Shown: positions 35 through 35,093 of the stretch, piece by piece
Position numbering within the stretch: position 1 is the first letter of the stretch
Layout of the letters: every line of letters begins with the position of its first letter
Assembly (NCBI GenBank): GCA_017540825.1
Contig: JAFYAH010000051.1
Location: forward strand, 363-64,362
Length of the DNA: 64,000 nucleotides
Reading direction: 5' to 3'
From: Candidatus Methanomethylophilaceae archaeon
Lineage (GTDB): Archaea; Thermoplasmatota; Thermoplasmata; Methanomassiliicoccales; Methanomethylophilaceae
Made by a program: the position numbers and the translations under genes
The notes under the pieces: model-generated
What the model was told of the DNA's origin: nothing
The model's input: the letters and a program-made list of their open reading frames with translations, nothing else
The model's database searches: none

Positions 35-643
35 TCATCGGTCTGGCTCCCAGATGCAGTAGAGAACGGCGTCATTGTTGATTTTATAATCCTGTCCGTT
101 GAGATATGTCGGCGCCGTGGCATACGGATCGGCGGAGAATCCTGCTATGTGGCATCCGTTCTTATAGAAACCATACGTGTTCAGGGTGTCATGGCCGCCT
201 TGAGCGAAACGCTTCGTACAGTACGGCATGTACTCGATTATGTGGTCGTCGGCATCATAGTTGCCGTCGTCGCCGTTTCCGTAGATGGTCAGGGAGCAGG
301 GATTGGCCTTTATGTCCTGGATGATGGACACGGACATCGGCGCCGAGTATTCCCAATGGCTGCCTATGACGATTCCGAGGAAATAATCGTTGACTTTCTT
401 CTTGAACACGGCGGTGAAATCGTCATTGTTCAGCAACGTTCCGGTTTTGAATTCTCCATTGTCGCAATCCACGAAGGCGGCGAAGCCAGGCTCGACCGTG
501 CGCGTCTCGCTGGAGCTGTCGTTACTGTAATGGAATGCCTGGTTGAAGAGGCCGATGTTCCTGTTAGAATGGTCAGAGACGCTTATGTCGTGAAGAGCAT
601 TTGAACCTGTACCGGCAGAGGTGTAGTCATAAAGACACCTGTA
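35..643 (-). CDS. C-terminal continuation of the 644..1360 reading frame (hypothetical secreted/surface protein). Track ORF 35..472 merely starts at an internal GTG.
   Basis: All 57 codons between TAG 644..646 and GTG 472 are open in the same frame. No ATG or TATA lies in between. Ends TGA 35..37. The tail ...TYGFYKNGCHIAGFSADPYATAPTYLNGQDYKINNDAVLYCIW resembles Listeria-Bacteroides (InlB-B type) repeats. Confidence 0.45.
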   Translation of the reverse strand, partial: YRCLYDYTSAGTGSNALHDISVSDHSNRNIGLFNQAFHYSNDSSSETRTVEPGFAAFVDCDNGEFKTGTLLNNDDFTAVFKKKVNDYFLGIVIGSHWEYSAPMSVSIIQDIKANPCSLTIYGNGDDGNYDADDHIIEYMPYCTKRFAQGGHDTLNTYGFYKNGCHIAGFSADPYATAPTYLNGQDYKINNDAVLYCIWEPDR

Positions 644-1360
644 CTATGTGCTTCCTAGATTGACGAGCTGGCCATTCACATCCAACGTGTGTATGTTGCG
701 TCCGGTAGCTGGAACGGTTTCGACAGAAAACTGCGAAGAATAGCAATTGTAGGTGCAATCGTCTTCATCGACGTAATAGTTAGCACCATATACGTTGAAA
801 CTACCCCATTCTCCACAGTCCACGTTCCGATACACGAAAGAGTCGTATTCCCAGTCTCCGGTGAAAATCTTGTCCGTTCTGGGAGGGACGATGTCGTGGG
901 AGACCCATCTGTTCATAGACAGGACGGATTTCTCCCTGCTGTCATTGTTGTCCTCGTAGCTGTAGGATGTGCGGGCGGAGGGATCGTATCTGAAGGCATA
1001 CGTCTTCCCTTCGGCTGAGAAGCAGGTGGAGTAGTCTTTGAGGTAGCTGGTCAGGCCGTAGTCGTTGAAGACTGCTATCGCCCCGATGCTCACACACGAG
1101 ATCAGGGCTTCTCTCACATCCTCATGGTCATTCTCTCTGATCCATTCGTTTCCAAACACCACGGCATATGCGTTTTCTATAGAGGAACGTTCGATTTCTT
1201 TCAAATCTCCGGTTCTCAGATCCAAAGACAACAGCTGATTGTCCAACCAATCATCGTGGGTTTCGCAGATAGGGTCGCTGTTCGTGGTCGGCTGGTCGAG
1301 GACCGCCATCGCTACGATGGATATAGCAACCACCATTATGCCGGCAATCCATATTTTCAT
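644..1360 (-). CDS. Hypothetical secreted or membrane-anchored protein, N-terminal segment ending at an in-frame TAG.
   Basis: N-terminal hydrophobic signal/anchor MKIWIAGIMVVAISIVAMAV. AT-rich TATA-like sequence upstream of ATG 1360. The stop is TAG 644..646 and the frame continues open. Confidence 0.6.
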   Translation of the reverse strand: MKIWIAGIMVVAISIVAMAVLDQPTTNSDPICETHDDWLDNQLLSLDLRTGDLKEIERSSIENAYAVVFGNEWIRENDHEDVREALISCVSIGAIAVFNDYGLTSYLKDYSTCFSAEGKTYAFRYDPSARTSYSYEDNNDSREKSVLSMNRWVSHDIVPPRTDKIFTGDWEYDSFVYRNVDCGEWGSFNVYGANYYVDEDDCTYNCYSSQFSVETVPATGRNIHTLDVNGQLVNLGST

Positions 1361-1650
1361 GATTGTAACATTGTTAATTATATACTTAATCCTATTTTTT
1401 TTTATTCTAAAATGGGAATCTTTGCAAATATACAGAACATAAACTTGATACCTCTAAATTACTCGACTACGTCGCGCTTGATCGAGCGCTTGCGAGCAGA
1501 TGATCCCCATGATGTTCTTGCCGCGGCCCTCGATCGTCAAGACTCAGAAACCGGCGGACAGGATTCCATTTATAGTGTTACTTTATTTATTTAATATATA
1601 ATATTACGAAATATTATTAAAATATTCATAATATAATGAAATATAGATAT

Positions 1651-1677
1651 AAAAATGGCGAGAGGGAGGGCCCTCCC
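1651..1677 (-). terminator. Hairpin plus T-run downstream of gyrA.
   Basis: Perfect palindrome GGGAGGGCCCTCCC (1664..1677) lies 7 nt after the gyrA stop. It is followed on the minus strand by CGCCATTTTTAT. Confidence 0.4.
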
Positions 1678-1684
1678 GCATGTT

Positions 1685-4228: not shown

Positions 4229-4232
4229 GGTA

Positions 4233-6401
<2,169 letters not shown>

Positions 6402-6468
6402 TTAGCACATGACCATCCGTCGGATAGTTATCGTTTGCCTGGCGGCAGACAGCAGAGAACGGACACGA

Positions 6469-8588: not shown

Positions 8589-8633
8589 CGACGCCGAGCA
8601 CCGATCGTTTTATCCTCGACGATGACTGGACGG

Positions 8634-9996
8634 ATGCAGTTCATGGACGTCGAGAGCATCGACACGGAATGGGAGGGGAACTGAAGCCCGAAGAACCTCG
8701 AGACGATAGCGGCGTTCTACAACACCGAAGGCGGACGCATGGCGATAGGCCGCAGAGACGACGGCCCGTTCATCGGCGTGGACGATGTGAAGGGGACCAT
8801 GAAGGAGATCTCGGACACCATCCGCAACAAGCTCCACATCGCATGCAGGATTCGCGCAGAGCTCGAAGGCTAGATCTGCTACATCACCATCGATGTCCCC
8901 TCGGAAACAGCATGGCCGCATTAGACGGCAGACTCTTTGTCCGCTCAGGGAACGCTACACAGGAGATCGAAGGGGACATCTCAAAAAGGCCATTCTGTCA
9001 GAGCAAGGGCTCCAGTGGCTCGACCAGACCGTGGACATACCGGTCGAAAGCCTGTCCAGAGATGCCATAGGCTATTTCATAGAGACAGGGGAGAAGGCTG
9101 GCAGGATACCGGAAGGCATCGACGGGTCCGACGTGCCTGCCATCTTGTCGAGATACCGCATCTTGAAGAACGGACGCCCGACGATGGCCGCAGTTCTCCC
9201 ATTCCATGAAGATCCATACAGCTTCAACTACGGCGCGATGGTGAAGATAGGCAGGTTCGATAGCGAACGCACGCTCCTCAGGGACGATATGGTCAGCGGC
9301 CCGATGATTGAGGTTCCCGAGAAGGCCATGCGTCTGCTGTACAGCAATTATATACCGCCGACCTACGGATATGGCGGCCTCACCGTGTCCGGGCACATGG
9401 ATTACGACTATCCTGAGAAAGCCGTCAGAGAGCTGATCGTGAATTCCGTGGTCCATATGGACTACTCCCTGCAGCAGCCGGTCGAGATCTCGGCGTTCGA
9501 CGACCGTATGGAGATGTTCTCTGCTGGAGGGCTGCCGAAAGGCCTGGCCATACCCGATCTGAAGAAACGGCACAGGTCCATCCGGCGCAACGAGACCTTG
9601 GCATCGGTGTTCTATTCCGCAGGGTATGTCGAGAACTGGGCGCAGGGCATAGCGAAAGTGATGAAAGAATGCGCCGAGAACGGCAACCCTGAGCCTGAGT
9701 TCTCGCTCGAGCTCGGCGGACTTATGGCAACCATGTACAAACGCTCACGGAACCCTGGAAGCACGATCCCCGAGCATAGCAGAAGCAGAGGCCTGGAAAC
9801 GACTCTAGACCAGCGCATCTTGGAAGCCATGTCCGGATCTGCGACGATGAGCACGAAAAGACTATCTGAAAAGCTGGGAGTCCCGTCAAGGACCATTCGG
9901 AGGCACCTTGCCCATCTTGTAGAGGCCGGCCAGATCGTCAGGGTGGGGAGCAACAGCAGCACAGAGTACGCCATAAAAGACGAACTGACCGTTTGA
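8634..9996 (+). pseudogene. Disrupted AlbA_2 (Schlafen-type) plus HATPase_c_4 putative DNA-binding/transcriptional regulator gene.
   Basis: The N-terminal AlbA_2 signature (ESIDTEWEG..NLETIAAFYNTEGGRMAIGRRDDGPFIGVDD) is broken by in-frame TGA 8682..8684 and TAG 8871..8873. Homology then jumps frame twice (AALDGRLFVRSGNATQEIEGD, then ILSEQGLQWLDQTVD...). The C-terminal 8893..9996 ORF carries the HATPase_c_4-like and wHTH part. Confidence 0.75.
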
Positions 9997-10137
9997 AAGC
10001 CCGGCCATAATGGGTGGCCGTTGAACCATCCGAGAATGAGTCGTGAACCGGTATGCCCCGCTGTGACAAACGATTCATAAGGATGCGGGCTTCACGGATG
10101 CCTGCATGCATTCCCGAGACCAAGCCTCTCGGAGCCT

Positions 10138-10440
10138 TCAGAGACGACCGACGGCCCTTCTCACCTCTTCGATATAGTCCTCGATAACCTCTCCGCCGTC
10201 CAGGATGACGTCTCCCACTACATCCAGCGCGACGGAATTGACAGCCTTCTCGAGCCTGAAGTCTGGCTTGGAACCTTCGAGGCATCTCTGGATGTATTCG
10301 ATCTCGGCCGCCTCCAAGGCCTCCGCCAGATGCTCCCAGCCCCTCTCGCGGCTTCTGCTCCCTGACTCTTCTGGCTCGGGTTCCAAAACTGCCTGCGACT
10401 CCTCGACGCTCATCATGGACGTCACCGAGCCGAGGTCCTC
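10138..10440 (-). CDS. TerB-C-like domain; in-frame continuation of 10441..12174 across TAG.
   Basis: Same frame as the upstream ORF, with only TAG 10441..10443 between them. Acidic linker, then ...EKAVNSVALDVVGDVILDGGEVIEDYIEEV resembles the TerB-C terminus. The track M is a GTG. Confidence 0.5.
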   Translation of the reverse strand, partial: EDLGSVTSMMSVEESQAVLEPEPEESGSRSRERGWEHLAEALEAAEIEYIQRCLEGSKPDFRLEKAVNSVALDVVGDVILDGGEVIEDYIEEVRRAVGRL

Positions 10441-12174
10441 CTACGCCTTTGAAACGGCGGCCATGTCGAGCTCCAGGGGCGTTTCCGGCTCGTCTCTCTG
10501 CGGCTCGTTGAGGCGGTCTATAGCCTCGTTCACGAGAGGGGTCACGTTAACTCCGAAGCACATCACCGGGTTCCGTCTGCGCCTTCCGTTGTCGGCGCGC
10601 ATATGCACAGAGCTCACGACGAAATCCATGAGAGACAACAGCTCCCTCGAGAAAGAGCCGTCTATGCGGTTCAATGACGGCATCCGGAATGTCGCCCTGC
10701 CCACGCTGAACATGCGCGGATGCACATCCTCTGTGGCTAACATCCCGTATCCCTTCAACCATCCAGCGCCTGATTCGCATTTGGACGTCAGAATCTTCGA
10801 GAACACCCTCTTGAACACAGTCCAGCACTCCTCGTACGACCCCGCAGGCGGCGAGACCTTGAGGAAGCGCCAGAAATACTCCGCTGGCAGCGGCTGCCTC
10901 TGCCCGTCTATGGCCCTTCTCAGCACAAAGCATGAAAGATCGCTATCGCTGGCAGCGACTTCGGAGGCTATTGGGATGCGCCCGACTGTTGAGGCCTCCG
11001 CCATCAGCATCGACAGGAATTCGTTCCTGTATTCAGAGCCTAGGCCGTGTACATCCGTCAGGAACGACATGATCTCCGAGAAGGCCGCGCCCTCCTTGAC
11101 CATCTCCATGCACCTAACGAGCAGGCAGCCGACGTCGAAGTCGTAAAACTTTCCTTCGAGGAGACGGTCCCTCCAGAACAAGTAGTAGTCTTTTCCGATG
11201 ATGCCCTCCGGAGTCAGGTCCACGACCTCCCAGAACACCCCTCTGTCCGACCTGGAAGCGGACACCCACTCCAGGTCGCGGATGACCGCTTCGGCTGTTG
11301 GCGACCCGTCGCATACGCCAATTATAGCCCTGCTGTCCCTGTAGAACGATGGCCGAGCCGGCGCTGGATATATCTCGATCTCCCCGTCGTCGAAGGAGAG
11401 GATTCTAAGGCCTCCAACGACGTCCTCCCTTATGTTTTCGTAACGCAATGTATCGTCTTCCATCGCCCGCTCCAGCCGATAGCAGAGATCCGGATATTCC
11501 GAGCCAGCCCCATAGCCGTCGCATACGCCTAAGACTTCGAAAAATAACTTGCTGAAGCCTTTCCAGTCCGGAGAGCGATAGCAGACGATGCGGCGAGGCT
11601 GCTCCTTAGCCGGGAGCAAGTCGAACAGGTTCAAGGATACGCTGGCCTCGTCGCGGGCGAAATGCTGCCCTATGCTCTCGCCGAACTTCTCCATGAAGTA
11701 CTGGTCGGCGATCTTGAAGGCGTGGTTCAGCCTCATGGAATTCACGGCCATGAACGAGTAGTACCCCCTCAGGCCCCTTGATAGGCAGAGATAGTCCGAT
11801 TCCAAGGAGGGGGAGAAGCGAGGCAGGAACATCTTCGTGAACACGGGCCCCATATCGATAGAATCGTAGCCACTGCTGACGAAGCTGCCACAGTAGACGG
11901 ACAGATCCCGTATGTAATCCCTGGCGTGTTCCGCAAAATTGCCGTTTCTGCTGCGGAAAAGGTACCTGTACAGCTTCTTGCGCCCCTCGTCAGTAGTAAG
12001 GCATTCCATTACCAGGAGATTGAAGTATCCCCAGTCCCCCTTTATCCTCCCCTTGTCGAGGATGGTTCTGAAATACGCATAGTAGCGCTTCTGTTCGTTC
12101 CGCATCCTGTCGCAATTAGACGGAACTTGCATTAGCTCCACATACGGGCACTTGGACGAATCCATCTCGTCCAT
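10441..12174 (-). CDS. TerB-N domain-containing protein (two TerB-N-like repeats), ending at an in-frame TAG.
   Basis: NEQKRYYAYFRTILDKGRIKGDWGYFNLLVMECL and KDYYLFWRDRLLEGKFYDFDVGCLLVRCMEMV match the TerB-N Y-x-WR...G...Y-hydrophobic-E pattern. The ORF ends ...PLELDMAAVSKA-TAG, exactly where TerB-C normally begins. Confidence 0.55.
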   Translation of the reverse strand: MDEMDSSKCPYVELMQVPSNCDRMRNEQKRYYAYFRTILDKGRIKGDWGYFNLLVMECLTTDEGRKKLYRYLFRSRNGNFAEHARDYIRDLSVYCGSFVSSGYDSIDMGPVFTKMFLPRFSPSLESDYLCLSRGLRGYYSFMAVNSMRLNHAFKIADQYFMEKFGESIGQHFARDEASVSLNLFDLLPAKEQPRRIVCYRSPDWKGFSKLFFEVLGVCDGYGAGSEYPDLCYRLERAMEDDTLRYENIREDVVGGLRILSFDDGEIEIYPAPARPSFYRDSRAIIGVCDGSPTAEAVIRDLEWVSASRSDRGVFWEVVDLTPEGIIGKDYYLFWRDRLLEGKFYDFDVGCLLVRCMEMVKEGAAFSEIMSFLTDVHGLGSEYRNEFLSMLMAEASTVGRIPIASEVAASDSDLSCFVLRRAIDGQRQPLPAEYFWRFLKVSPPAGSYEECWTVFKRVFSKILTSKCESGAGWLKGYGMLATEDVHPRMFSVGRATFRMPSLNRIDGSFSRELLSLMDFVVSSVHMRADNGRRRRNPVMCFGVNVTPLVNEAIDRLNEPQRDEPETPLELDMAAVSKA

Positions 12175-12369
12175 TTTGCGTATGAAGTCCAGCCTCTACT
12201 CCAACGGCATGACAATGGTGCCAATCGGACGAATCGCCCCGTACATGGACGAGTGATGCGGTAGCCATGAATAACAGTTGCCGTCTGAGATAGACTGCAG
12301 GAGATGTCGCAGAAAGGCCTGAAGTCGGCAGAAAGCTCTCGAGCCGCGCTGGGAGAGGCAGTATGATGA

Positions 12370-12444
12370 TGGAGCCACTGGAGGGGATCGAACCCCCGGC
12401 CTGCGGTTTACGAAACCGCCGCTATACCCCTAAGCCACAGTGGC
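12370..12444 (-). tRNA. tRNA-Thr (anticodon CGU), with encoded CCA.
   Basis: Folded by hand: GCCACTG/CAGTGGC acceptor, anticodon stem GCGGT/ACCGC with loop TTCGTAA, T arm GGGGG-TTCGATC-CCCTC, discriminator T plus CCA. 75 nt. Confidence 0.9.
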
Positions 12445-13956
12445 ACGCATAGGTGGAGCGAACCATGGTATAAAAACATGGCCCATGCTCCCTCTCTGAC
12501 CATCGAACGAACCGGCATCCTGACACCGCCGTCGCAGACGTGTGCGTCGTTCGGGAGTCTCGTGCTGAGCCGCCCTCCGCTTCAGGAACGACGGCTTGTC
12601 CTCGAACGAATCCATGAAAGCGGCGGCGAACAGCGGCATGTGGACGACCCCGCCCGCATCCACGAATATGTTGCCGTCCTCTAGCTTCACCCTGTGGGCC
12701 ACGTCGAAAACCTCGCCCACCTTGGATAGCGACGGAGAGTCCCGCTTTTTTCCCGATTTCACCTCTATGGCGGTCGCTCCGCTCGGCATCTCCACGACGA
12801 AATCTATCTCCATGCGCCCGTTGCCGTTGCTCTTCTGATAGTAGAACGTGTCGAAGCCGCTCTTGACCAGCCCCTCTGCGACAGCGTTCTCTGCAAGAGC
12901 CCCGAGATTATACGAATAATCCGCGGAATGGATCGCTATGACGGCCCCCTCGCCGTACATACGCGCGAGAAGCCCCGTGTCCGACATGTAGACCTTGAAC
13001 ACGTCGGGCTTCTTCTGACCGGCGAGGGGCAGGCTTATCTGCGAGATCCCATGGACGAAGTTGCCGTATCCTGCGTTCTTTATCCACAGGAGGTTCCCCC
13101 CGTACACATCGGCCGACTTGCGGGATCCCGCCCTGTCCTTGCCGACCTCCGAATAATGGAAGCGCTTATTGGTCTTGGACAGCTGCCCTGGGATGGATTC
13201 GAAGCACTCCATCGTCTTGACTGCGTCCATGCCGGAATTGTACCTGTTGATGTCCTGCCCCACCAGGGCCAGGATCCCTTCTTGGACTGCCATAGCTCCG
13301 TAATACGTCTCGCGGTTCTCGTTGAAGGCCTCCACCGCCGCAGGCATGCCTCCTATGATCATATATTTGCGGAACAGTGCGGCGAACCTTCCTAGGATCG
13401 CGTCCGGGACTGGAGAACGGAATCTTATGCATCTGCGGACCTCTGCGACGGAGTCCGGAGGAACCCCTTGAGACCAAAGGAACTCCTCGAAATCCAAGGA
13501 GCGCATGATGTACGGCTCCACGTATCCCATGGGAGAGAGCATGCCTTTCCTTTCCATAGAGCCTGTTCCGCTGATCTTGACGCCGAGCATCGAGCCGGAA
13601 GCGATGACCTTGAACCTCCCGTCCAGAGCAAAGAGCTTCAGAGCAGAGAAGGCCGCCTCGCAATCCTGTATCTCGTCGAAAAAGAACAGCGTATCCGACA
13701 GATCTCCGGATCCGAGAGAGCGCAGAGTGCGAATTGACAGCATTATCCCGTCTATCGAAAGGCTACGGCCCTCGAACACCGACCGGAACTCCGCGTCCTT
13801 GCTGAGATCTGCATACACATATCCGGAGTAGTTCTCCTTCGCGAAGCTCTCTATTATGAAGGTCTTCCCTGTCTGCCTCTGACCGTACACCAGAAGGGGC
13901 TTCCTGCCGTTCTCCTTCCAGTCCATCAGCCTGGCGTATGCCTTCCTTTGCAGCAT
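12430..13956 (-). CDS. AAA family ATPase (AAA_14 plus DUF4143 type).
   Basis: Walker A YGQRQTGKTF, Walker B LFFFDEIQD, and a DUF4143-like C-terminal half. An unusual tail of about 55 aa ends at a TAG that lies inside the tRNA-Thr gene. Confidence 0.8.
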   Translation of the reverse strand: MLQRKAYARLMDWKENGRKPLLVYGQRQTGKTFIIESFAKENYSGYVYADLSKDAEFRSVFEGRSLSIDGIMLSIRTLRSLGSGDLSDTLFFFDEIQDCEAAFSALKLFALDGRFKVIASGSMLGVKISGTGSMERKGMLSPMGYVEPYIMRSLDFEEFLWSQGVPPDSVAEVRRCIRFRSPVPDAILGRFAALFRKYMIIGGMPAAVEAFNENRETYYGAMAVQEGILALVGQDINRYNSGMDAVKTMECFESIPGQLSKTNKRFHYSEVGKDRAGSRKSADVYGGNLLWIKNAGYGNFVHGISQISLPLAGQKKPDVFKVYMSDTGLLARMYGEGAVIAIHSADYSYNLGALAENAVAEGLVKSGFDTFYYQKSNGNGRMEIDFVVEMPSGATAIEVKSGKKRDSPSLSKVGEVFDVAHRVKLEDGNIFVDAGGVVHMPLFAAAFMDSFEDKPSFLKRRAAQHETPERRTRLRRRCQDAGSFDGQRGSMGHVFIPWFAPPMRATVA

Positions 13957-14005
13957 TGCTCCTGCAAAGGGTTCATGGATATTAATCCTGCTTCAAAATA
14001 CCGGA

Positions 14006-16471: not shown

Positions 16472-16846
16472 TCAATCACCGTCATACATCAGGTCCACGA
16501 TCTCGTGAAGCTCCTCGCGGGATATCCCGTTCTCGCGCGCCTCGTCCGCCGCCTTGCGGATGCTCTCCTGTATGGAGACCAGATGCCCTTCGCGGATGAC
16601 CGACGGCTCCACCGAGGACACGTAGCACCCCTTGCCGCCGACCGTGGTGATCAGCCCCTCGGCCTCCAGGTCGTTGTACGCGCGCTTGGTGGTGATCACG
16701 CTGATCCTCAGGTCCTTGGCCAGGACGCGCATGCTCGGGAGCAGCTCCCCTTCCTTCAGCACGCCGTTGATTATCTGCGAGCGGATCTGAGAGTATATCT
16801 GCTCGTAGATCGGCCTTGGATCGGAGTTGCTGACGACGATATCCAT
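16472..16846 (-). CDS. GntR family (YtrA-like) transcriptional regulator.
   Basis: 124 aa. PIYEQIYSQIRSQIINGVLKEGELLPSMRVLAKDLRISVITTKRAYNDLEAEGLI is a canonical GntR wHTH. It has the short C-terminus typical of the YtrA subfamily that precedes ABC genes. Confidence 0.9.
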   Translation of the reverse strand: MDIVVSNSDPRPIYEQIYSQIRSQIINGVLKEGELLPSMRVLAKDLRISVITTKRAYNDLEAEGLITTVGGKGCYVSSVEPSVIREGHLVSIQESIRKAADEARENGISREELHEIVDLMYDGD

Positions 16847-17025: not shown

Positions 17026-17820
17026 ATGAAGGTGGAACTCGACGTACAGCTCGACCCTACCCTCGGCTGCGGCCAGGCCCACAGATGGAGAAAGAAGGGG
17101 GACGGGTCCTGGGAGGGCGTCCTGGGAAACAGCATAGTGGTCCTGAGGCAGGAGGAGAGCGGCATGTCGGTCGAAGGGTGCTCCGAGCGGCGCATCCTAG
17201 ACTACATGAGGGCGGACGACGACGTCGATCGCATCCTCGCGGACATCTCCAGGCGCGAGCCATACGTCGCCGACCTAATTGCGCGCTGTCCGGGCATGCG
17301 CATACTGAGGCAGGACCGCTGGGAGTGCCTGGCCACCTATCTTCTCGCTACCAACGCCAACGTCGCCCGCATAGGGAAGATGGTAGAGTCCGTGTGCGCC
17401 GAGTTCGGGACCGACCTCGGAGGAAGGTCCTCGTTCCCTACTCCGAAGCAGATCCTCGACGGGAGGGACAGGGCCTGCGTGTGCAGGCTCGGGTTCAGGG
17501 AGCCCAGGCTCATCGAGCTGGCGAAACGCGTAGAGAGCGGGGACATAGACCCGGACGCCATCGCGGAGCTAAGCTACGAGGACTGCTGCGAAGCCCTCAT
17601 CGGAATAAACGGAGTCGGCCCTAAGGTCGCCGACTGCGTAGCCCTGTTCGCATACGGACATCTCGAAGCCTTCCCCATAGACGCCCGCATCTCCAAGGTG
17701 ATGGAGATAAGATACGGCGTAACGGGCAGCTACAGGAAGGTCGCCGACGAAGGCAGAAGGATCTTCGGCCCCTATGCTGGATACGCCCAGGAGTTCCTGT
17801 ACCACAGCCAGTTCATCTGA
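17026..17820 (+). CDS. 8-oxoguanine DNA glycosylase/AP lyase (OGG1-type HhH-GPD).
   Basis: INGVGPKVADCVALFAYGHLEAFPIDARI carries the OGG1 catalytic Lys and Asp context. N-terminal LGCGQAHRW is also present. Confidence 0.75.
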   Translation: MKVELDVQLDPTLGCGQAHRWRKKGDGSWEGVLGNSIVVLRQEESGMSVEGCSERRILDYMRADDDVDRILADISRREPYVADLIARCPGMRILRQDRWECLATYLLATNANVARIGKMVESVCAEFGTDLGGRSSFPTPKQILDGRDRACVCRLGFREPRLIELAKRVESGDIDPDAIAELSYEDCCEALIGINGVGPKVADCVALFAYGHLEAFPIDARISKVMEIRYGVTGSYRKVADEGRRIFGPYAGYAQEFLYHSQFI

Positions 17821-18230
17821 CTCAGAAAAGGATATTGCAAGCATCGGCCGGTCTTCACCGGGTTGCAGGAGCATCTGGGCGACGGCTGCCCGGTCTGGGA
17901 CTCGTAGGCCTTGTCCAGGAGCCCCGACCTCTTGAACACGCCGCAGAGCCTGCACATCTCCAGGGAGAAGTCGGCGTCCTCCTCGGCGATCCTGCGCGCG
18001 GACTCCCTCAGCTCGTCCATGAACATCCTGTAGTCGGGGTCGCCCTCGTCCATGTCCGGCCTCCCGCCCCTCTTCCTCTTCATGTACTGGGAGACCGCGG
18101 CGTCGGTGACGTCGAACCTGCGCGCGACCTCGGCCTGGGACATGCCGTGGACGTTGACGAGCTCGGCCGCCATCTCGCGGCGTATCATGGGGAGGACGTA
18201 CCAGACGATGAGCTCGCAGGGGACTTTCAT
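17772..18230 (-). CDS. Predicted HTH transcriptional regulator (COG2522-like).
   Basis: MKVPCELIVWYVLPMIRREMAAELVNVHGMSQAEVARRFDVTDAAVSQYMKRKRGG, plus Cys pairs downstream. Ends at TAG 17772..17774, 49 nt inside the convergent ogg gene. Confidence 0.5.
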   Translation of the reverse strand: MKVPCELIVWYVLPMIRREMAAELVNVHGMSQAEVARRFDVTDAAVSQYMKRKRGGRPDMDEGDPDYRMFMDELRESARRIAEEDADFSLEMCRLCGVFKRSGLLDKAYESQTGQPSPRCSCNPVKTGRCLQYPFLSQMNWLWYRNSWAYPA

Positions 18231-23627: not shown

Positions 23628-23660
23628 CAGACCACAAATGCTTAGCCCATGATGAAAATC

Positions 23661-23914: not shown

Positions 23915-25201
23915 ATGGTCGAGGAACACGATGGGCCCCGCTTGAACGTGGACGGGCTGTCGAAAGCAGTCCTGAGGGACTCGAAGGTCCTCTCGCGCAT
24001 AATAGCCGAGACGGTCGACGAGGCCGAAGGCCTGAGCCTCGAGGAGATAGAGGCAGGACTGCCGCTGGAGGAAGACGGACGGACGGTCAGGACGCTCCAG
24101 CCCGAGCTCTCCACTGGGTTCGGGCTGATCGTGTACGACATCCTCGTCGAGGTGGCCCTCAGAGGGCAAAGGGTGCTGGTGAACGTGGAAGCCCAAGGGA
24201 AGGTCGATAAGGGCATGGCATGCAGGCAGGCTATCTACCAGCAGGGTCTGCGCTGGTACCAGCGTTTCGTCATGGGAAGGGATTACGAGAGCCTGATCCC
24301 CGCCTACAGCATATGGGTCGTCATGAACCCTGGCAGGAGGCTCAGGAACACGGTCCTGCGCCACCTCTCCCCTGATTACATCGAAGGGGAGGACGGAAGA
24401 TACGTGGTAGCCCCGAGGACATGCGGCGGAAGGATCGTGGAGATCAACGTCGGCGACCCTTGGAAAGCGAGGAAGGGCGTGCTGAAGCTGGCCGGCGCAT
24501 GCTTCAGAGACGGGATGCCGCTGCGGAAGCGTGCCGAATTCCTCAAGAACCGTTTTAATATCGATCTGTACGATGGGTACTATAGGAGCGAGATATGCAT
24601 GTTCGCGACGCTTAACGAAGACTACATCGAGGGCGTGAGGATGTCCGCGATGGAGGACGGCAAAGACGAGGGAAGAGCAGAAGGCATAGCGGAAGGGAGG
24701 GCCGAAGGGAGGGCCGAAGAGATGTCGAGGAAGGTCTCGGAGTATGCGGAGACCGTCCTCAGCGTGGCGAAGGCCGGCGGATGGACGCTCGAAGAGGCCA
24801 TGTCCATCGCCAAAGTGCCTGAAACGATAATTGACGACGTCAGGAGAGCCGCTTCGAACCGTATGAAGGATGGATCGGATGACGGCGCGCGAAGCTCCGG
24901 CCTTCTCGCACGAAAAAATAATAGGGTGCCCGGCTGTACTCCTGCGCATGAGGCCCTTCGGTTTCGCCCTGACGCTGTTCTTTGCCGCGGCGCTTATGCT
25001 AGCGGCTTCCCCCTGCATCGTCGCAGACGATGCGCAGGACAACGTCACTCTGGAGGGCTACGTCTCGAGCGTCATCAAAGGGAGCACCACCTACCTCAAA
25101 GGGGCGGAGATCGTCGCAGCCGGAACCGACGGCACCACATACAAGGCGATCACGAACGACGGCGGGATGTTCATCCTGTCCTGCCCTCCCGGCGTCTATG
25201 A
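23915..25201 (+). CDS. Rpn-family recombination-promoting nuclease / putative transposase (PD-(D/E)XK, YhgA-like).
   Basis: DILVEVALRGQRVLVNVEAQGKVDKGMACRQAIYQ core, and a C-terminal EGRAEGIAEGRAEGRAEE repeat typical of Rpn proteins. The reading frame runs about 100 codons past the expected end and overlaps the next gene. Confidence 0.65.
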   Translation: MVEEHDGPRLNVDGLSKAVLRDSKVLSRIIAETVDEAEGLSLEEIEAGLPLEEDGRTVRTLQPELSTGFGLIVYDILVEVALRGQRVLVNVEAQGKVDKGMACRQAIYQQGLRWYQRFVMGRDYESLIPAYSIWVVMNPGRRLRNTVLRHLSPDYIEGEDGRYVVAPRTCGGRIVEINVGDPWKARKGVLKLAGACFRDGMPLRKRAEFLKNRFNIDLYDGYYRSEICMFATLNEDYIEGVRMSAMEDGKDEGRAEGIAEGRAEGRAEEMSRKVSEYAETVLSVAKAGGWTLEEAMSIAKVPETIIDDVRRAASNRMKDGSDDGARSSGLLARKNNRVPGCTPAHEALRFRPDAVLCRGAYASGFPLHRRRRCAGQRHSGGLRLERHQREHHLPQRGGDRRSRNRRHHIQGDHERRRDVHPVLPSRRL

Positions 25202-25532
25202 GGTGACGACGAAATGCGGCGGGTTCGAAAAGGTCGTCCTGAATAACGTGATAGCAGGGACCGGGCCCATAGAGATAAGCATGGAGCTCAGAGACACCTC
25301 GGTGGTATGGGGGCTGGATGTGCCCCACACCCTCGAGATTGCCGGCATAGTCGTCGTGCTCATCACTCTGGCGATAGGGGCCGTGATGATCCGCGTCCTC
25401 CGCAAGTCCCCCGACGTCACCGTCATCGACGACGCCGACGACCCCATGGTCGAGCTGGAAGACCTGGATGAGCTCGAGGACGAGTACGAGGACGAGGACT
25501 ACGTCTACGACGAGGACGTCAAGGAGTCCTGA
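24948..25532 (+). CDS. Membrane-anchored protein with a carboxypeptidase-regulatory-like (CarboxypepD_reg) domain and an acidic tail.
   Basis: Signal peptide MRPFGFALTLFFAAALMLAASP. LEGYV...GAEIVAAGTDGTTYKAITNDGGMFILSCPPGVYEV beta-sandwich signature, then a TM helix and a poly-D/E C-terminus. Confidence 0.6.
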   Translation: MRPFGFALTLFFAAALMLAASPCIVADDAQDNVTLEGYVSSVIKGSTTYLKGAEIVAAGTDGTTYKAITNDGGMFILSCPPGVYEVTTKCGGFEKVVLNNVIAGTGPIEISMELRDTSVVWGLDVPHTLEIAGIVVVLITLAIGAVMIRVLRKSPDVTVIDDADDPMVELEDLDELEDEYEDEDYVYDEDVKES

Positions 25533-27085: not shown

Positions 27086-28794
27086 TCATGATGCGAGACC
27101 GGACCTGGTGAACCCCTTGGGCGTGACCACCGAGACCCTCTTCCCCCTTATCCCCACGGCCACCCAGACGACCTTCCCGTCGAGCGGCTTCGATGCGTAT
27201 CCCTTCTCCTCGATCTGGGCCTGGGCGGCGTCGGCGGAGATCTCCGGTATCGCCTTGGACGAGGTCTTTATCTCCATGGCCAGGGCGGGCGCCCCGCCGC
27301 TGCCGGGGACGAACACGTCGCACCTGCCGAACCCCTTGGGGGCCTCCTCGGAGGCCGCCATGCCTGCGGCCCTCATCGCCGACGAGATCGCGTTCTTGTA
27401 CCTGTCGTGGGCCTCCCTGCCGTCGCCGGCCCACCCGGAGTCCATGGATATGCCGCCGAGGACGAACTGGATGTCGTCGCGTATCGCCGCCGGGTCCCCC
27501 GAGAGGAAGTGCCCCCTCATGTCCCTGCGCAGCTCCCTCGCGCGACTGGTCGCCCTGCCCACCAGGGACTCGAAGGCGGGGGATATCTCGCGGTTCACCA
27601 TGCCGACGTCGTAGAGCTCGTCCTCCGCCGCCGTCATGAGGCCCGTGGGGTCGGCCCTCACGTACCCGCACATCGCAAGGTACGAGTAGACCAGGGCCGG
27701 GTCCGCGTCCTCCTCCAGCAGGTCGGGGAACCACAGGAACTCCCTCAGCGGGCAGCGGACCTTTGACGAGGGGTCCTCGTAGAGGCCCTTCAGCTCCTGC
27801 AGGGCGATGCCGTCCAGCCTGCCGATGAGGTCGGCGGACATGCCGGCCCCCGTGGAGCCGTCCCAGTACTTCCTCGCGGCGCGGCCTCCCTTGAGGTACT
27901 TCACCACGCTGTATGGGTTGTACACCTCCTTTCCCCCGAACCTGTAGCCGTCGTACCAGTCGCGTATCTCCTCCATCACCCCGGGGAGGTCGTTCCCGGT
28001 CTCCGCGAGCAGCCGCTCCACCTCCCCCGCGGTGAACCCGAAGTGCTCGTCCCCCTCGTGGCTGAAAATGTCGCAGACGACAGGGTTGTTGAAGCTCTGA
28101 GCATCCCCGCCTTGGCGAGGGGCATTATGCCGGTGACCACCCCCGTGCGCATGTGAGTATTGGTCTTGAACGTCTGCTCCATGAACGGCCTTATGCTATT
28201 GACTATGCCGTCATACAGATCCTGGTCAGACAGACCCTGGACACAGCGATCGTATTCGTCCACGAACAGCATGACCTTCCTACCATACGCATTGTCTAGG
28301 ATTTCGCACATATCCGCAACAGCGCAGTTCAAAGCCATCCCTTTCAGACCTCCGTCTGCGCATTTTCTCAGCCTGCGAGCATCGTCTTCGTTGAGTGCAT
28401 CAGGCGATATGGCCCTCCGTACCCTTGTAGCGATCAAAGACACCAGGTCCGATAGGCTCTCGCGAAACTCATCAACAGAGAATGAGGAAAGCCTGCTGAA
28501 GTCCATCCTTATCACAGGGTAGGCGTTCCTGTGCTCCGCGCATTCAGGGCATTCTTTCGTTATGCGCCTCCCCGCGAACATGTCGGGAGAGCCCCTGTAG
28601 TCTATGTTGAAGAAGTAGTCGAGCATGGACAGGTTCACGCTCTTCCCGAACCTGCGCGGGCGGGTGTAGAGGATGACCTTGTCCTCCGCCTCGCAGACGT
28701 CACGGATCATCATGGTCTTGTCCACGAAGCAGTACCCCTTGGTGACCATCTCCCCGTAGTCCTTCACCCCGTCCGGGTACTTCACCGCCGCCAT
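27086..28794 (-). pseudogene. DUF1703 family (AAA-ATPase_like plus PDDEXK_9) gene with a single frameshift.
   Basis: ORFs 27976..28794 and 27086..28021 are the two halves. Shifting one nucleotide near 28096..28100 restores ...GIMPLAKAGML-SFNNPVVCDIFSHEGDEHFGFTAGEVERLLAETGNDLPGVMEEIRDWYDGYRF, colinear with the intact paralog at 44471..46117. Confidence 0.8.
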
Positions 28795-30460: not shown

Positions 30461-30462
30461 GG

Positions 30463-32792: not shown

Positions 32793-32909
32793 ATGCCACT
32801 CATTAGTTCCATGTGATATAAAAGAACGGAGGCGTGCACGCACGGGTCTGCCTCCATGACGGCGACCGTCCGGGAAAGTTTTATCTCACGATACGTCCAA
32901 CGCCGTGGC

Positions 32910-33182
32910 ATGAAGGAATGCATGGACTCGGAGAACCTCCACAGGCGGCTCAAGAAGATATCGGGGCAGGTCGCGGCCGTGGACCGCATGATAGACGAGG
33001 ACGTCCCCTGCGAGGACATACTGATACAGGTCAATGCGATAAAGAGCGCCCTGCACAGCGTCGGGCAGATCATACTCGAGGGGCACATCAAGCACTGCGT
33101 GCGGAACGGGATAGAGCACGGGGACGCGGACAGGACCATAGAGGAGTTCGCGGCAGTGGTGAAGCAGTTCTCCAAGCTCTGA
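32910..33182 (+). CDS. CsoR/RcnR (DUF156) family metal-sensing repressor.
   Basis: LHRRLKKISGQVAAVDRMIDEDVPCEDILIQVNAIKSALHSVGQIILEGHIKHC carries the x-C-H-C ligand fingerprint. TTTTATCT box 31 nt upstream of ATG 32910. Confidence 0.85.
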   Translation: MKECMDSENLHRRLKKISGQVAAVDRMIDEDVPCEDILIQVNAIKSALHSVGQIILEGHIKHCVRNGIEHGDADRTIEEFAAVVKQFSKL

Positions 33183-33227
33183 TACCCCCATAGGGTACTT
33201 TATATACTCAATACCCCTATTGGGTAT
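33182..33227. promoter_or_regulatory. Two CsoR-type operators flanking the ATPase TATA box.
   Basis: ATACCC-CCATA-GGGTAC (33182..33198) and ATACCC-CTATT-GGGTAT (33211..33227), with TTTATATA (33199..33206) between them. Confidence 0.6.
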
Positions 33228-34607
33228 TTGGCGATAATATTGACCGTTATAGAAGTTATCAGGAAGAACAAAATCCAGATTGGAATGATAATTGCGTCAA
33301 TAGCACTGGTTATCACCGCAATTTTATTTCCATCCTTCAATTACATAGCCCTTATACCCGTCATGGTATGTGGGGCGCCCATACTCGTGGACGTCCTGGT
33401 GGACGTGGAAGACGGGAGGGTGTCTGCCGAGACGCTAGTCATATCAGCTATATTCGGATGCGTCATTCTCAGCGAGTACGTCGCGGCTGCGGAGATCGCA
33501 GTGATAATGTACATCGGCGCGCTCCTGGAGAAGTCCGTGACGGAATACGCCCAGATGGGCATGGACGCGCTGAGGAACCTCAAAGTAGACAGCGTCAGCC
33601 TGCTGGACGGGGGCGCGGTGAAGCAGGTCCGCACGGAGCGCGTAGGGATCGGGAGCGTGGTGCGCGTGTTCCCGGGCGGCATAGTCCCGCTGGACGGCAC
33701 CATAGTCTCCGGGTCTTCGTCGATCGACAGGTCGGCTGTGACCGGGGAATCCGTCCCTGTCGACGTGCGCGAGGGCGACGCCGTCCTCGCCGGGACCAGC
33801 AACCTCAACGGGTCCATCGACGTGAGGGTGGACCGCGTCGAGTCGGAGAGCTACGTCAGCCGCATGGCGGAGCTGCTCGAGAAGGCGGCCGCCGGGAAGA
33901 GCAGGATGGCGTCCATGGCCGACAGGGCGTCCAAATACGTCCTCTTCGGAGCCGCGGCCATCGCGATAGCGACGTTCGTGCTCACCGGCGACGTGTACCG
34001 CGCCCTGACCGTGATGGTGGTGTTCTGCCCCTGCGCGTTCGTCCTTGCGACGCCCACCGGGATCATGGCGATGGCCGGCAACATGGCCAGGCACGGCATA
34101 CTCCTGAGGGACGCGTCCGCGATGGAGGGCATGGCAAAGGCCAAGGCGGTGCTCTTCGACAAGACCGGCACCCTCACGGAAGGGAGGATGACCTCCCTGG
34201 GGTTCACCGGCACGGACGACGTCGACGAGAGAGAGGTGGAGGGGATGGTGTCCGCCCTGGAGTCCCGCTCCGACCACCCTCTTGGGAAGGCCCTGTCGGC
34301 CAGCGCCCCGAAGGGTGCTGTGGAAGGGTTCGAGAACATCCCCGGACAGGGCGTCGTCGGGACGGTCGACGGCGTCCGCATGGCTGTGGGGAACCGCAGC
34401 CTGATGGAACGCCTCTGCCCGGAAGGCCTGGAAGCCGCGTCCGAGGCCGCGAGCAGATCCTCTGCGGTCACCGTCCTCGTAGGGATGGACGGCAGGACCG
34501 TGGGGTTCATGAGCCTTGCGGACAGCGTTAAGAAGGGCTCCGCCGAGGCCGTGTCCGATCTGAAGGACTCCGGAGTGACCACCGTGATGCTCACTGGGGA
34601 CTCCTAG
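33228..34607 (+). CDS. Heavy-metal P1B-type ATPase, N-terminal 459 codons up to an in-frame TAG.
   Basis: TGES actuator motif, CPC in the TM helix (VVFCPCAFVLATP), phosphorylation site DKTGTLT, and MLTGDS. No N-terminal HMA domain. The start may be TTG 33228 (leaderless) or ATG 33285. Confidence 0.85.
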   Translation: MAIILTVIEVIRKNKIQIGMIIASIALVITAILFPSFNYIALIPVMVCGAPILVDVLVDVEDGRVSAETLVISAIFGCVILSEYVAAAEIAVIMYIGALLEKSVTEYAQMGMDALRNLKVDSVSLLDGGAVKQVRTERVGIGSVVRVFPGGIVPLDGTIVSGSSSIDRSAVTGESVPVDVREGDAVLAGTSNLNGSIDVRVDRVESESYVSRMAELLEKAAAGKSRMASMADRASKYVLFGAAAIAIATFVLTGDVYRALTVMVVFCPCAFVLATPTGIMAMAGNMARHGILLRDASAMEGMAKAKAVLFDKTGTLTEGRMTSLGFTGTDDVDEREVEGMVSALESRSDHPLGKALSASAPKGAVEGFENIPGQGVVGTVDGVRMAVGNRSLMERLCPEGLEAASEAASRSSAVTVLVGMDGRTVGFMSLADSVKKGSAEAVSDLKDSGVTTVMLTGDS

Positions 34608-35093
34608 AGGGCTGCGACAGAGGTGCGCGATAGCCTGGGCCTCGACGACCTCGTGTGGGAGTGCACCCCCGAGGCCAAGATGAGGACGGTGGAGCACTTC
34701 GAGTCCGAAGGCCCGGCCTGCATGGTGGGTGACGGCATCAACGACGCACCCGCCCTGCGGAGGGCCTCCGTGGGGATATCGATGGGGTCCATAGGAAACG
34801 ACCTCGCCGTCACGTCCTCCGACGTCGTGTTCCTGAACGACGACGTTGGGAAGCTCCCTGGGCTGCTCAGGCTCAGCAGGCGCTCCGTCAAGACGATAGC
34901 GGCGGGCCTCGCCATGTCGATGTGCGTGAACATCGCAGGCACCGCCCTGGCGATGGGAGGGCTGATAGGGCCCGCGGCCGGAGCGCTGATCCATAACGGG
35001 GGGTCCCTCGCGGTCGTCCTGCTGACGGCGTCCCTGCTGTGGAGCCCGGACCTGACCCGCTCGCCAAACCATATCTACCCGGATCCGGAATAA
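34608..35093 (+). CDS. Same P1B-type ATPase, C-terminal part following the in-frame TAG.
   Basis: Same frame. Reads RAATEVRDSLGLDDLVWECTPEAK, the hinge VGDGINDAPAL, then the final two TM helices with HNGGS. Ends TAA 35091..35093. Confidence 0.8.
   Translation, partial: RAATEVRDSLGLDDLVWECTPEAKMRTVEHFESEGPACMVGDGINDAPALRRASVGISMGSIGNDLAVTSSDVVFLNDDVGKLPGLLRLSRRSVKTIAAGLAMSMCVNIAGTALAMGGLIGPAAGALIHNGGSLAVVLLTASLLWSPDLTRSPNHIYPDPE

What the first reader, a model, noticed from the sequence alone, without database searches (positions are those of the whole stretch)
35..35093. Stop-codon census: TAG is almost never a clean terminator in this window
Reading the 3' ends of about 56 called CDS by eye, I find about 47 TGA, 7 TAA and only 2 TAG. 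Both TAG terminators are odd. One lies inside the tRNA-Thr gene after a tail of about 55 aa with no family resemblance (12430). The other lies 49 nt inside the convergent ogg gene (17772). Every other TAG at an ORF end is an in-frame junction (644, 10441, 34605) or sits in a multiply broken pseudogene (8871). UAG depletion together with in-frame UAG in conserved genes is the pattern known for pyrrolysine-decoding archaea. The gene content here is compatible with such a lineage, but the lineage itself is my inference.
Basis: partly seen in the sequence, partly recalled or inferred. Interest (0 to 1): 0.8.

Follow-up and report, generated by a model that had tools for sequence, protein, structure and literature searches.

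The report
Pyrrolysine-decoding archaeon that avoids TAG stops
The window comes from a gut methanogen (family Methanomethylophilaceae) whose pyrrolysine genes lie 8-11 kb away on the same contig, so the near-absence of TAG stop codons and the in-frame TAGs are the documented signature of a known archaeal genetic-code variant.

Summary
I count about 55 genes in the window: 46 end in TGA, 7 in TAA and 2 in TAG. TAG makes up 27% of stop triplets off-frame and between genes, so the depletion is not chance (P about 4e-6).

- **The two TAG ends follow run-on tails.** They are at 12430 (inside tRNA-Thr) and 17772 (49 nt inside ogg). Both tails lie past the end of family homology and look non-coding.
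- **TAG 34605 sits inside an otherwise intact P-type ATPase.** The essential GDGINDAP motif lies downstream of it. dN/dS is 0.17 upstream and 0.18 downstream.
- **TAGs 644 and 10441 join orphan ORFs.** Coding signal continues in frame past both.
- **TAG 8871 lies in a broken pseudogene.**

The contig that contains the window also carries tRNA-Pyl(CUA), pylS, pylB, pylC, pylD, mtmC and an mtmB with the canonical in-frame TAG, 8-11 kb left of window position 1. Closest relatives are Methanomethylophilaceae. In 66 related loci TAG ends 4.4% of genes.

This pattern is already published (Borrel 2014; Kivenson 2024, "Genetic Code 34"). Sequence alone cannot show whether UAG is fully sense here or also terminates.

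In passing, I found several genes with no stop at their natural end. The clearest is an M20 hydrolase that runs 458 codons antisense through ftsY.

The parts
33228..35093 (+). P1B-type heavy-metal ATPase with one in-frame TAG at 34605-34607, directly after the MLTGDS motif. The GDGINDAP motif and the last membrane helices lie downstream of the TAG.
   Evidence: Homologues are full length across the site and have E/G/S/R/Q/K there. The closest relative has GAA at that codon. dN/dS is 0.167 upstream and 0.184 downstream. Legionella CopA (3RFU) has Lys at the aligned position. The TAG is present in all three contigs fetched and compared, and the truncated product is on record on 24 contigs.
35..1360 (-). 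Orphan secreted or membrane-anchored protein with an in-frame TAG at 644-646. The ORF continues 203 codons to a TGA at 35-37.
   Evidence: The codon score of the 437-643 gap in frame (-0.03) matches the upstream body (-0.01). The other frames score -0.33 to -1.26. No Pfam family. Database callers split it into 238 aa + 133 aa.
10138..12174 (-). Orphan 577-aa ORF ending in TAG at 10441-10443, followed in frame by 100 coding-like codons to a TGA at 10138-10140.
   Evidence: The in-frame codon score is 0.104 upstream and 0.107 downstream. The only database hit is itself. Pfam gives only TerB_C at E=2.8, which is not significant. An AGGAGG overlapping the TAG and a GTG start at 10425 would also fit a separate coupled small gene.
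12430..13956 (-). AAA_14/DUF4143 ATPase whose ORF overruns its family end by about 50 codons and stops at TAG 12430-12432 inside tRNA-Thr.
   Evidence: Pfam domains end at residue 402 of 508. The tail 12433-12599 scores -0.41 per codon against +0.22 for the body. The next in-frame TGA/TAA is not until 10140.
12370..12444 (-). tRNA-Thr (anticodon CGU), the only tRNA in the window.
   Evidence: ARAGORN and Rfam RF00005 at 64.3 bits.
17772..18230 (-). Small HTH/Cys-motif regulator with about 20-25 extra C-terminal residues, ending at TAG 17772-17774, 49 nt inside the convergent ogg gene.
   Evidence: Homologues end 3-12 residues after the invariant Cys120. Of 80 orthologues, 75 end in TGA, 4 in TAA and 1 in TAG. 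Read-through would run 429 codons antisense of ogg, through five more TAGs, to the TGA whose first base is at 16484.
17026..17820 (+). 8-oxoguanine DNA glycosylase (ogg), convergent with the regulator; ends in TGA.
   Evidence: Pfam OGG_N, E=1.6e-16.
8590..9996 (+). Decayed AlbA_2/HATPase_c_4 gene. The AlbA_2 frame carries TGA 8682, TAG 8871 and TAG 8922, and the homologous sequence shifts between frames. Only the C-terminal 321 aa remain as one ORF.
   Evidence: Three-frame translations and the list of stops. Pfam HATPase_c_4 plus HTH on 8893-9996. 34% identity to the intact paralogue at 64550-66028.
46857..49466 (-). Side finding: an M20 metallohydrolase with no stop at its natural end (about 48250). 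The ORF runs 458 more codons antisense through ftsY to TAA 46857.
   Evidence: NCBIfam NF010589, 444 bits, residues 5-403 of an 869-aa ORF. Relatives end 'CLKG-TGA' or 'CLKGEE-TAA', whereas the window has CGA at that point. The sequence is identical in 4 other contigs and the same state occurs in a 99%-identical strain.

Best explanation
The window is chromosomal DNA of an uncultured Methanomethylophilaceae archaeon (order Methanomassiliicoccales) from ruminant gut metagenomes. It encodes the full pyrrolysine system. A tRNA with anticodon CUA, charged by PylRS with pyrrolysine made by PylBCD, reads UAG during elongation.

Because UAG is suppressed, selection has removed TAG from natural gene ends, leaving TGA and some TAA. 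Occasional mutations to TAG inside genes are tolerated at permissive positions and are translated as pyrrolysine. Here that applies to the P-type ATPase, and probably to the two orphan ORFs.

The two TAG 'terminators' in the window are not selected stops. Both genes overrun the end of their family homology into non-coding-like sequence, and TAG is simply the first stop triplet in that frame.

Shown: the TAG depletion, the in-frame TAGs, the pyl cassette and mtmB on the same contig, and the family affiliation. Inferred: that Pyl is actually inserted at these UAGs, and how efficiently.
For: - TAG is depleted at gene ends (2 of ~55) although TAG is 27% of off-frame and intergenic stop triplets.
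- pylT, pylS, pylB, pylC and pylD, plus mtmC and an mtmB with in-frame TAG, lie on the same contig.
- The ATPase TAG sits at a variable site where the closest relative has GAA and LpCopA has Lys. The downstream 161 codons show dN/dS 0.18 against 0.17 upstream and contain the GDGINDAP motif.
- The TAG is identical in all three contigs fetched and compared, and the truncated product is on record on 24 contigs.
- Coding signal continues in frame past TAGs 10441 and 644.
- TAG avoidance is family-wide: 35 of 798 gene ends (4.4%) in 66 loci, and 1 of 80 orthologues of the regulator.
- Published precedent: low amber usage in Methanomassiliicoccales (PMC3941956); genome-wide TAG=Pyl shown by proteomics in Methanomethylophilus alvi (bioRxiv 10.1101/2024.09.30.615893).
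Against: - There is no protein-level evidence for this organism.
- All strains sampled are more than 99.9% identical, so a very recent nonsense mutation in the ATPase cannot be excluded.
- The orphan with TAG 10441 has no homologue other than itself, the orphan with TAG 644 was not searched, and neither has a Pfam family. Their joins rest on codon statistics only. An AGGAGG at the 10441 TAG also fits two coupled genes.
- If UAG never terminated, the regulator at 17772 would overlap all of ogg in antisense, which is Kivenson's Category 4.
- An AlbA_2 gene just right of the window (64550) has TAG at its natural end.
Confidence: 0.9

Rival explanations
1. UAG has a dual meaning here, as demonstrated for Methanosarcina acetivorans. 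It is read as Pyl in mtmB and the ATPase, but the archaeal release factor still terminates a useful fraction of ribosomes at UAG. On this view the TAGs at 17772 and 12430, and at 64550 just outside the window, work as real if leaky stops.
For: - The regulator's read-through product would be a 429-codon antisense run-on through ogg.
- The AlbA_2 gene at 64550 ends in TAG exactly where its paralogue ends.
- PMC12626013 reports dual decoding in M. acetivorans.
- Kivenson et al. note that the release factor is retained in all the Pyl archaea they examined.
Against: - The TAGs at 17772 and 12430 follow non-coding-like tails, so they do not look like selected terminators.
- In the related M. alvi, every detectable TAG-spanning peptide contained Pyl.
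- TAG at gene ends is as rare here as in genomes classed as fully recoded.
Confidence: 0.4
2. The in-frame TAGs are ordinary nonsense mutations or gene splits. On this view the ATPase and the two orphans are pseudogenes or pairs of adjacent genes, and the low TAG count reflects base composition.
For: - The window does contain decaying genes: the AlbA_2 pseudogene and a stop-less M20 hydrolase.
- The orphan with TAG 10441 has no homologue other than itself, the orphan with TAG 644 was not searched for homologues, and neither matches a Pfam family.
- Standard gene callers split all three genes.
Against: - Composition predicts more TAG than TAA, 1100 against 653 off-frame, yet gene ends show 2 against 7.
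- The ATPase downstream segment is under the same purifying selection as the upstream one and has no further lesion.
- A complete Pyl system and a TAG-containing mtmB sit on the same contig, so UAG suppression must operate in this cell.
Confidence: 0.07
3. The TAG-bearing genes at 8.6-14 kb (pseudogene, orphan, AAA_14/DUF4143 ATPase), beside tRNA-Thr, are a recently acquired island from a donor that uses TAG as a stop and have not yet adapted to the host code. This would explain the local cluster of TAGs but not the overall pattern.
For: - Four of the seven TAG events in the window (8871, 8922, 10441, 12430) fall within 5.4 kb next to a tRNA gene.
- The gene content is accessory or defence-like.
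- GC3 there is lower, 0.73-0.76 against about 0.85-0.9 elsewhere.
Against: - I did not look for integrase genes or direct repeats.
- The ATPase, mtmB and the regulator lie outside the island.
- The idea is compatible with the main explanation rather than an alternative to it.
Confidence: 0.3

Closest known systems
Genetic Code 34 / genome-wide TAG=Pyl in Methanomethylophilus alvi and other archaea (Kivenson et al., bioRxiv 10.1101/2024.09.30.615893)
   Same: - Same family of archaea.
- pylTSBCD next to methylamine methyltransferase genes.
- TAG at 5% or fewer of gene ends.
- Internal TAG in conserved non-methyltransferase genes at non-conserved positions ('singletons').
- Standard gene callers split these genes.
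   Different: - A different, uncultured species: PylS is 65% identical to one named Methanomethylophilus sp..
- No proteomics.
- In 92 kb, one of seven TAG-bearing genes is 'Category 4' (the regulator overlapping ogg), so full reassignment is not demonstrated.
Low amber usage in Methanomassiliicoccales (Borrel et al. 2014, PMC3941956)
   Same: Complete Pyl gene set, in-frame amber codons in mtmB/mtbB/mttB, and amber rarely used as a stop (at most 11% of stops in the three genomes analysed).
   Different: That work described three cultured or enriched genomes. This window is an additional rumen-type lineage and adds a Pyl-position ATPase.
Ambiguous UAG decoding in Methanosarcina acetivorans (Shalvarjian et al. 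2025, PMC12626013)
   Same: Same Pyl machinery, with no PYLIS-type element required. Some TAGs sit where termination would make biological sense.
   Different: Methanosarcina is in a different phylum from the Thermoplasmatota lineage of this window. Nothing here measures read-through.
P1B-type ATPases such as Legionella CopA (PDB 3RFU)
   Same: The DKTGT, CPC, TGD and GDGINDAP motifs are all present. The match to 3RFU has E=1.6e-80.
   Different: The codon after TGDS is TAG, where CopA has Lys and close relatives have Glu, Gly or Ser. No N-terminal heavy-metal-binding domain was seen.

Membership tests
Pyrrolysine-decoding archaea | tRNA-Pyl gene with CUA anticodon | tested here: met
   ARAGORN finds tRNA-Pyl(cta) at L012 19090-19160, just upstream of pylS and about 8.7 kb left of window position 1 on the same contig. 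Rfam gave no hit in that region.
Pyrrolysine-decoding archaea | pylS (PylRS catalytic subunit) | tested here: met
   TIGR02367 PylS_Cterm, 255.5 bits against a cut-off of 178. Homologues are named pyrrolysine--tRNA(Pyl) ligase. No pylSn was seen in the 92 kb examined; from general knowledge, not checked in the papers read here, Methanomassiliicoccales lack it.
Pyrrolysine-decoding archaea | pylB, pylC and pylD biosynthesis genes | tested here: met
   TIGR03910 432.9/348, TIGR03909 296.4/248 and TIGR03911 197.5/150 bits. The pylD ORF lacks a stop at its natural end and runs on to 601 aa.
Pyrrolysine-decoding archaea | Methylamine methyltransferase gene with the canonical in-frame TAG | tested here: met
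   mtmB at L097 7429-8844 has TAG at codon 201 ('GLGV*GPET'), both halves hit PF05369, and mtmC lies upstream.
Genetic Code 34 (TAG fully reassigned; Kivenson Group C) | Low TAG frequency at gene ends (typically 5% or less) | tested here: met
   2 of ~55 genes in the window, and 3 natural or run-on TAG ends among 72 called genes in the 83.6-kb extended region.
Genetic Code 34 (TAG fully reassigned; Kivenson Group C) | Internal TAG in conserved genes other than methyltransferases (Category 1) | tested here: met
   The P-type ATPase has homology on both sides of TAG 34605.
Genetic Code 34 (TAG fully reassigned; Kivenson Group C) | Few or no cases where TAG read-through gives an out-of-frame or opposite-strand overlap of more than 60 nt (Category 4) | tested here: inconclusive
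   The regulator at 17772 is Category 4, one of seven TAG-bearing genes in 92 kb. Its tail is already aberrant. A whole-genome count is needed.
Genetic Code 34 (TAG fully reassigned; Kivenson Group C) | Pyl detected by mass spectrometry at TAG positions, with no termination products | not testable with these tools
   No proteomic data are available for this uncultured organism.
Methanomethylophilaceae (Methanomassiliicoccales) | Closest relatives of several genes belong to the family | tested here: met
   NCBI names for the ATPase (MBR6205159.1) and PylS (MBR6203801.1) clusters. The best loci for the regulator are Methanomethylophilaceae or Methanomassiliicoccaceae MAGs at 72% identity or less. 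No marker-gene phylogeny was made, and the species itself was not among the GTDB representatives returned.
P1B-type heavy-metal ATPase | DKTGT phosphorylation site, CPC membrane motif, TGD and GDGINDAP motifs in one polypeptide | tested here: met
   FDKTGTLT, FCPCAF, MLTGDS and VGDGINDAPAL are all present in the read-through translation. GDGINDAP lies after the TAG, so a functional pump requires read-through.

The most novel reading that the evidence does not exclude
Translation termination may be unusually relaxed in this lineage, beyond UAG=Pyl. Within 92 kb, five genes have no stop at their homology-defined end:
- the M20 hydrolase, where the relatives' stop position reads CGA
- the unnamed gene at 23915
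- pylD
- the AAA_14 ATPase
- the HTH regulator

These states are fixed across many independent assemblies. They might be tolerated because transcripts end early or because non-stop rescue is efficient. That would link a two-stop-codon code to a raised load of run-on genes. Alternatively, UAG termination may be context-dependent.
Probability: 0.12. Interest if true: 0.55.

Novelty: already known. Interest (0 to 1): 0.25.

Why it matters
The case shows that a stop-codon census of a single 64-kb window can correctly flag a recoded genome. It also shows that standard annotation mis-splits genes in this lineage: the ATPase is deposited as a truncated protein, and mtmB and two orphans are split.

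It adds a heavy-metal P-type ATPase to the proteins predicted to contain pyrrolysine, at a position that is Lys in Legionella CopA. It gives concrete test cases for the open question of whether UAG still terminates in Methanomethylophilaceae: the regulator overlapping ogg, and the AlbA_2 gene ending in TAG.

The phenomenon itself is already in the literature, so the scientific gain is small.

Tried and rejected
- **Composition as the cause.** Rejected: TAG outnumbers TAA off-frame.
- **TerB_C domain across TAG 10441.** The only Pfam hit, but E=2.8 and 8.6 bits, so not evidence.
- **Homologues of the 10441 orphan.** The search of 5.8 billion proteins returned only itself.
- **16-sequence alignment for the genome scan.** A 5-sequence alignment worked.
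- **Run-on genes as former TAG stops that decayed to sense codons.** Rejected for M20: relatives end in TGA or TAA and the window has CGA at that point. Unlikely for the regulator: 75 of 80 orthologues end in TGA.
- **Apparent strain variant of M20 in L102.** It is a scaffold gap of Ns, not a mutation.
- **Sequence context around the seven TAGs.** No distinguishing pattern, and the sample is too small.
- **ATPase cluster members.** They differ by at most one residue, so they cannot date the TAG.
- **Rfam.** It does not detect the tRNA-Pyl that ARAGORN finds.

Full report
**1. What the window is**

The window has about 60% G+C and one tRNA, tRNA-Thr(CGU) at 12370-12444 on the minus strand. It encodes gyrase A/B, ThiC, an Lhr-type helicase, MCM, NMD3, primase, FtsY, TiaS, Cdc6 and an A-type ATP synthase operon. 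This is an archaeal chromosome.

Exact or near-exact copies occur on more than 20 metagenomic contigs, mostly from ruminant gut assemblies. L001-L003 are 99.96-99.995% identical to the window. NCBI holds a product of the ATPase gene as MBR6205159.1, 'MAG: Candidatus Methanomethylophilaceae archaeon'.

**2. Checking the census**

A self-trained codon-usage gene caller found 58 ORFs: 45 TGA, 6 TAA, 6 TAG and 1 running off the end. I combined these with the gene calls stored for identical contigs. I then merged ORFs split at TAG and added one gene that all callers miss (M20, see section 8). The window then has about 55 genes: 46 end in TGA, 7 in TAA and 2 in TAG.

The depletion is not compositional. 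In the 83.6-kb extended region, stop triplets in off-frames and intergenic DNA number 2310 TGA, 653 TAA and 1100 TAG, so TAG is 27%. Seeing 2 or fewer TAG among 57 ends has P=3.7e-6 at that rate. At a conservative 15% it is P=0.006. TAG is commoner than TAA as a triplet but rarer at gene ends.

**3. The two TAG 'terminators'**

Gene 12430-13956 (minus strand) is an AAA_14/DUF4143 ATPase.
- Its last Pfam domain ends at residue 402 of 508.
- Codons 12433-12599 score -0.41 per codon, against +0.22 for the body.
- A maximal-segment analysis gives a 49-codon non-coding-like tail.
- The TAG lies inside the tRNA-Thr gene.

Gene 17772-18230 (minus strand) is a small HTH regulator with conserved cysteines.
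- Representatives of its family end 3-12 residues after the invariant Cys120.
- In 80 species of Methanomassiliicoccales the orthologue is 118-133 aa, with one of 140 aa. Of these, 75 end in TGA, 4 in TAA and 1 in TAG.
- Here the protein is 152 aa. The last ~24 codons score as non-coding.
- The TAG lies 49 nt inside the convergent ogg gene (17026-17820).
- One relative (L051) has the same long tail, ending in TAA at the same position.

So both TAGs are the first stop met after the gene overran its natural end. Neither is a stop at a natural end.

**4. The in-frame TAGs**

TAG 34605 (ATPase, 33228-35093).
- It follows MLTGDS in a P1B-type ATPase.
- Full-length homologues align on both sides and have E, G, S, R, Q or K at that column.
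- The nearest relative, at 82% identity, has GAA there.
- Legionella CopA (3RFU) has Lys there.
- The GDGINDAP motif lies downstream of the TAG, so a working pump needs read-through.
- Against that relative, dN/dS is 0.167 over the 459 upstream codons and 0.184 over the 161 downstream codons.
- The truncated 459-aa product is on record on 24 contigs, and the members of its cluster differ by at most one residue. The TAG is therefore fixed in the sampled population, but I cannot date it.

TAG 10441. The 100 codons after it have the same in-frame codon score as the 577-aa body, 0.107 against 0.104. The protein has no homologue other than itself and no significant Pfam match. An AGGAGG overlapping the TAG and a GTG start at 10425 would also fit a separate coupled ORF.

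TAG 644. The ORF stays open for 203 more codons. The 207-nt stretch that gene callers leave uncalled scores like the rest of the gene in frame and much worse in all other frames. I did not search for homologues of this protein.

TAG 8871. The AlbA_2/HATPase_c_4 gene around it is a real pseudogene. Its AlbA_2 frame carries TGA 8682, TAG 8871 and TAG 8922, and the homologous sequence shifts between frames. An intact paralogue lies at 64550-66028.

**5. The decisive evidence lies just outside the window**

Contig ena:ERZ28019130:k141_95422 (70.5 kb) matches the window exactly over 10,436 bases and extends to the left. Going left from window position 1 it carries, in this order:
- an SMR transporter pair;
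- pylD, pylC, pylB and pylS;
- tRNA-Pyl with anticodon CUA;
- a nitroreductase;
- mtmB and mtmC.

The four Pyl proteins exceed NCBIfam's curated equivalog cut-offs. mtmB is split by gene callers into 200 aa and 234 aa at an in-frame TAG, '...GRPGLGV*GPETPLS...'. To my knowledge this is the canonical pyrrolysine position, residue 202 in M. barkeri MtmB. The PylS protein is also deposited as MBR6203801.1, 1,358 accession numbers from the ATPase entry. That spacing fits one MAG.

**6. Family context**

In 66 loci (1.09 Mb) around the regulator's orthologues, my caller finds 662 TGA, 101 TAA and 35 TAG ends, so TAG is 4.4%. Two sediment lineages (L066, L078) are TAG-rich exceptions.

The literature already describes this.
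- Borrel et al. 2014 (PMC3941956) reported rare amber stops and complete Pyl systems in Methanomassiliicoccales.
- Kivenson et al. 2024 (bioRxiv 10.1101/2024.09.30.615893) proposed Genetic Code 34, in which all TAG codons are Pyl. They gave proteomic proof in Methanomethylophilus alvi. They also noted that most non-methyltransferase Pyl positions are lineage-specific 'singletons' that arise neutrally, and that annotators split such genes.

The window fits that description point by point.

**7. What remains open**

Applying Kivenson's categories to the 92 kb examined gives:
- Category 1: mtmB and the ATPase.
- Category 3: the two orphans, the AAA_14 gene (a run-on that fuses in frame with the next ORF) and the AlbA_2 gene at 64550.
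- Category 4: the regulator.

The AlbA_2 gene at 64550 ends in TAG exactly where its paralogue ends, with a 25-codon extension to the next TGA. The regulator's read-through would run 429 codons antisense of ogg.

Shalvarjian et al. 2025 (PMC12626013) show that UAG is both stop and Pyl in Methanosarcina acetivorans. Sequence alone cannot say which regime applies here. I put about 0.4 on functionally relevant termination at some UAGs.

**8. Side observation: genes without a natural stop**

The tail analysis flagged more run-on ORFs.

M20 metallohydrolase.
- It is the clearest case: NF010589, 444 bits, residues 5-403.
- It starts at 49466 on the minus strand and should end near 48250. Instead it stays open for 458 more codons, antisense through ftsY, to TAA 46857.
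- Relatives end 'CLKG-TGA' or 'CLKGEE-TAA'. The window reads 'CLEGEE-CGA...', which looks like a TGA-to-CGA stop loss.
- The sequence is identical in four other contigs, and the same state occurs in a 99%-identical strain.
- Database gene callers do not call this gene at all.

Gene 23915-25201 overruns the next gene by about 118 out-of-frame codons.

pylD is a 601-aa ORF. It passes its family end at about residue 260, crosses the antisense of an uncalled gene and enters an SMR gene in frame.

These cases are not caused by TAG. They do show that the two TAG-terminated tails belong to a wider set of stop-less genes in this population. The first stop met in the five cases is TAG, TAG, TAA, TGA and TGA, which is about what composition predicts.

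**9. Verdict**

The biology is already known. The only modest additions are the Pyl-position ATPase, the test cases for UAG termination, and the run-on genes.

Noticed in passing
window 46857-49466 (-), convergent with ftsY 46917-48224 (+): The M20 family metallohydrolase has no stop at its natural end (~48250). The ORF continues 458 codons antisense through ftsY to TAA 46857. Relatives end CLKG-TGA or CLKGEE-TAA, whereas the window has CGA there. The state is fixed in all contigs seen, and gene callers miss the gene entirely.
   Followed up: yes
window 23915-25201 (+) and 24879-25532 (+): An unnamed 428-aa ORF loses its coding signal at about 24850 but stays open for about 118 more codons. 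It overlaps the next gene, a CarboxypepD_reg-like membrane protein, out of frame.
   Followed up: partly
L012 14222-16027 (-), about 3.8-5.6 kb left of window position 1: pylD is a 601-aa ORF. The PylD profile ends near residue 260. The ORF then crosses the antisense of an uncalled ~180-aa gene and runs in frame into an SMR (SugE-like) transporter gene, so pylD also lacks a stop at its natural end.
   Followed up: partly
L008 12299-13777 (-), equivalent to window coordinates 64550-66028, just right of the window: An intact AlbA_2/HATPase_c_4 gene ends in TAG exactly where its paralogue ends. Read-through would add 25 residues before a TGA. This was the only TAG at a natural gene end in the 92 kb examined.
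   Followed up: partly
window 8590-13992: A 5.4-kb stretch beside tRNA-Thr holds a pseudogene, an orphan gene and an AAA_14/DUF4143 ATPase, and contains four of the window's seven TAG events. GC3 is lower there. It may be an acquired island. I did not look for integrase genes or repeats.
   Followed up: no
window 10138-13992 (-): The AAA_14 gene, the 77 codons after its TAG, the orphan ORF and its 100-codon extension are all in one reading frame. There is no TGA or TAA for 1284 codons, only TAGs at 12432, 12198 and 10443.
   Followed up: partly
window 52000-56000: G+C drops to 0.505 next to a cdc6/orc1 gene (52971-54206). This may be a replication origin region.
   Followed up: no
L066 and L078 (related MAGs from sediments): Unlike the other relatives, these two loci use TAG often (5 of 14 and 5 of 6 called gene ends). 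Not all members of the clade avoid TAG.
   Followed up: no
L050, L051, L055, L067, L068, L072, L075, L079, L082, L083, L085, L092: Contigs carrying a clear Methanomassiliicoccales orthologue sit in genome records titled as bacteria (Prevotella hominis, Bacteroides ovatus, Lachnospiraceae and others). These are probably mis-binned archaeal contigs.
   Followed up: no
window 27976-28794 (-): An AAA-ATPase_like protein of 272 aa lacks the PDDEXK_9 half present in the 548-aa paralogue at 44471-46117. It is probably a truncated copy.
   Followed up: no
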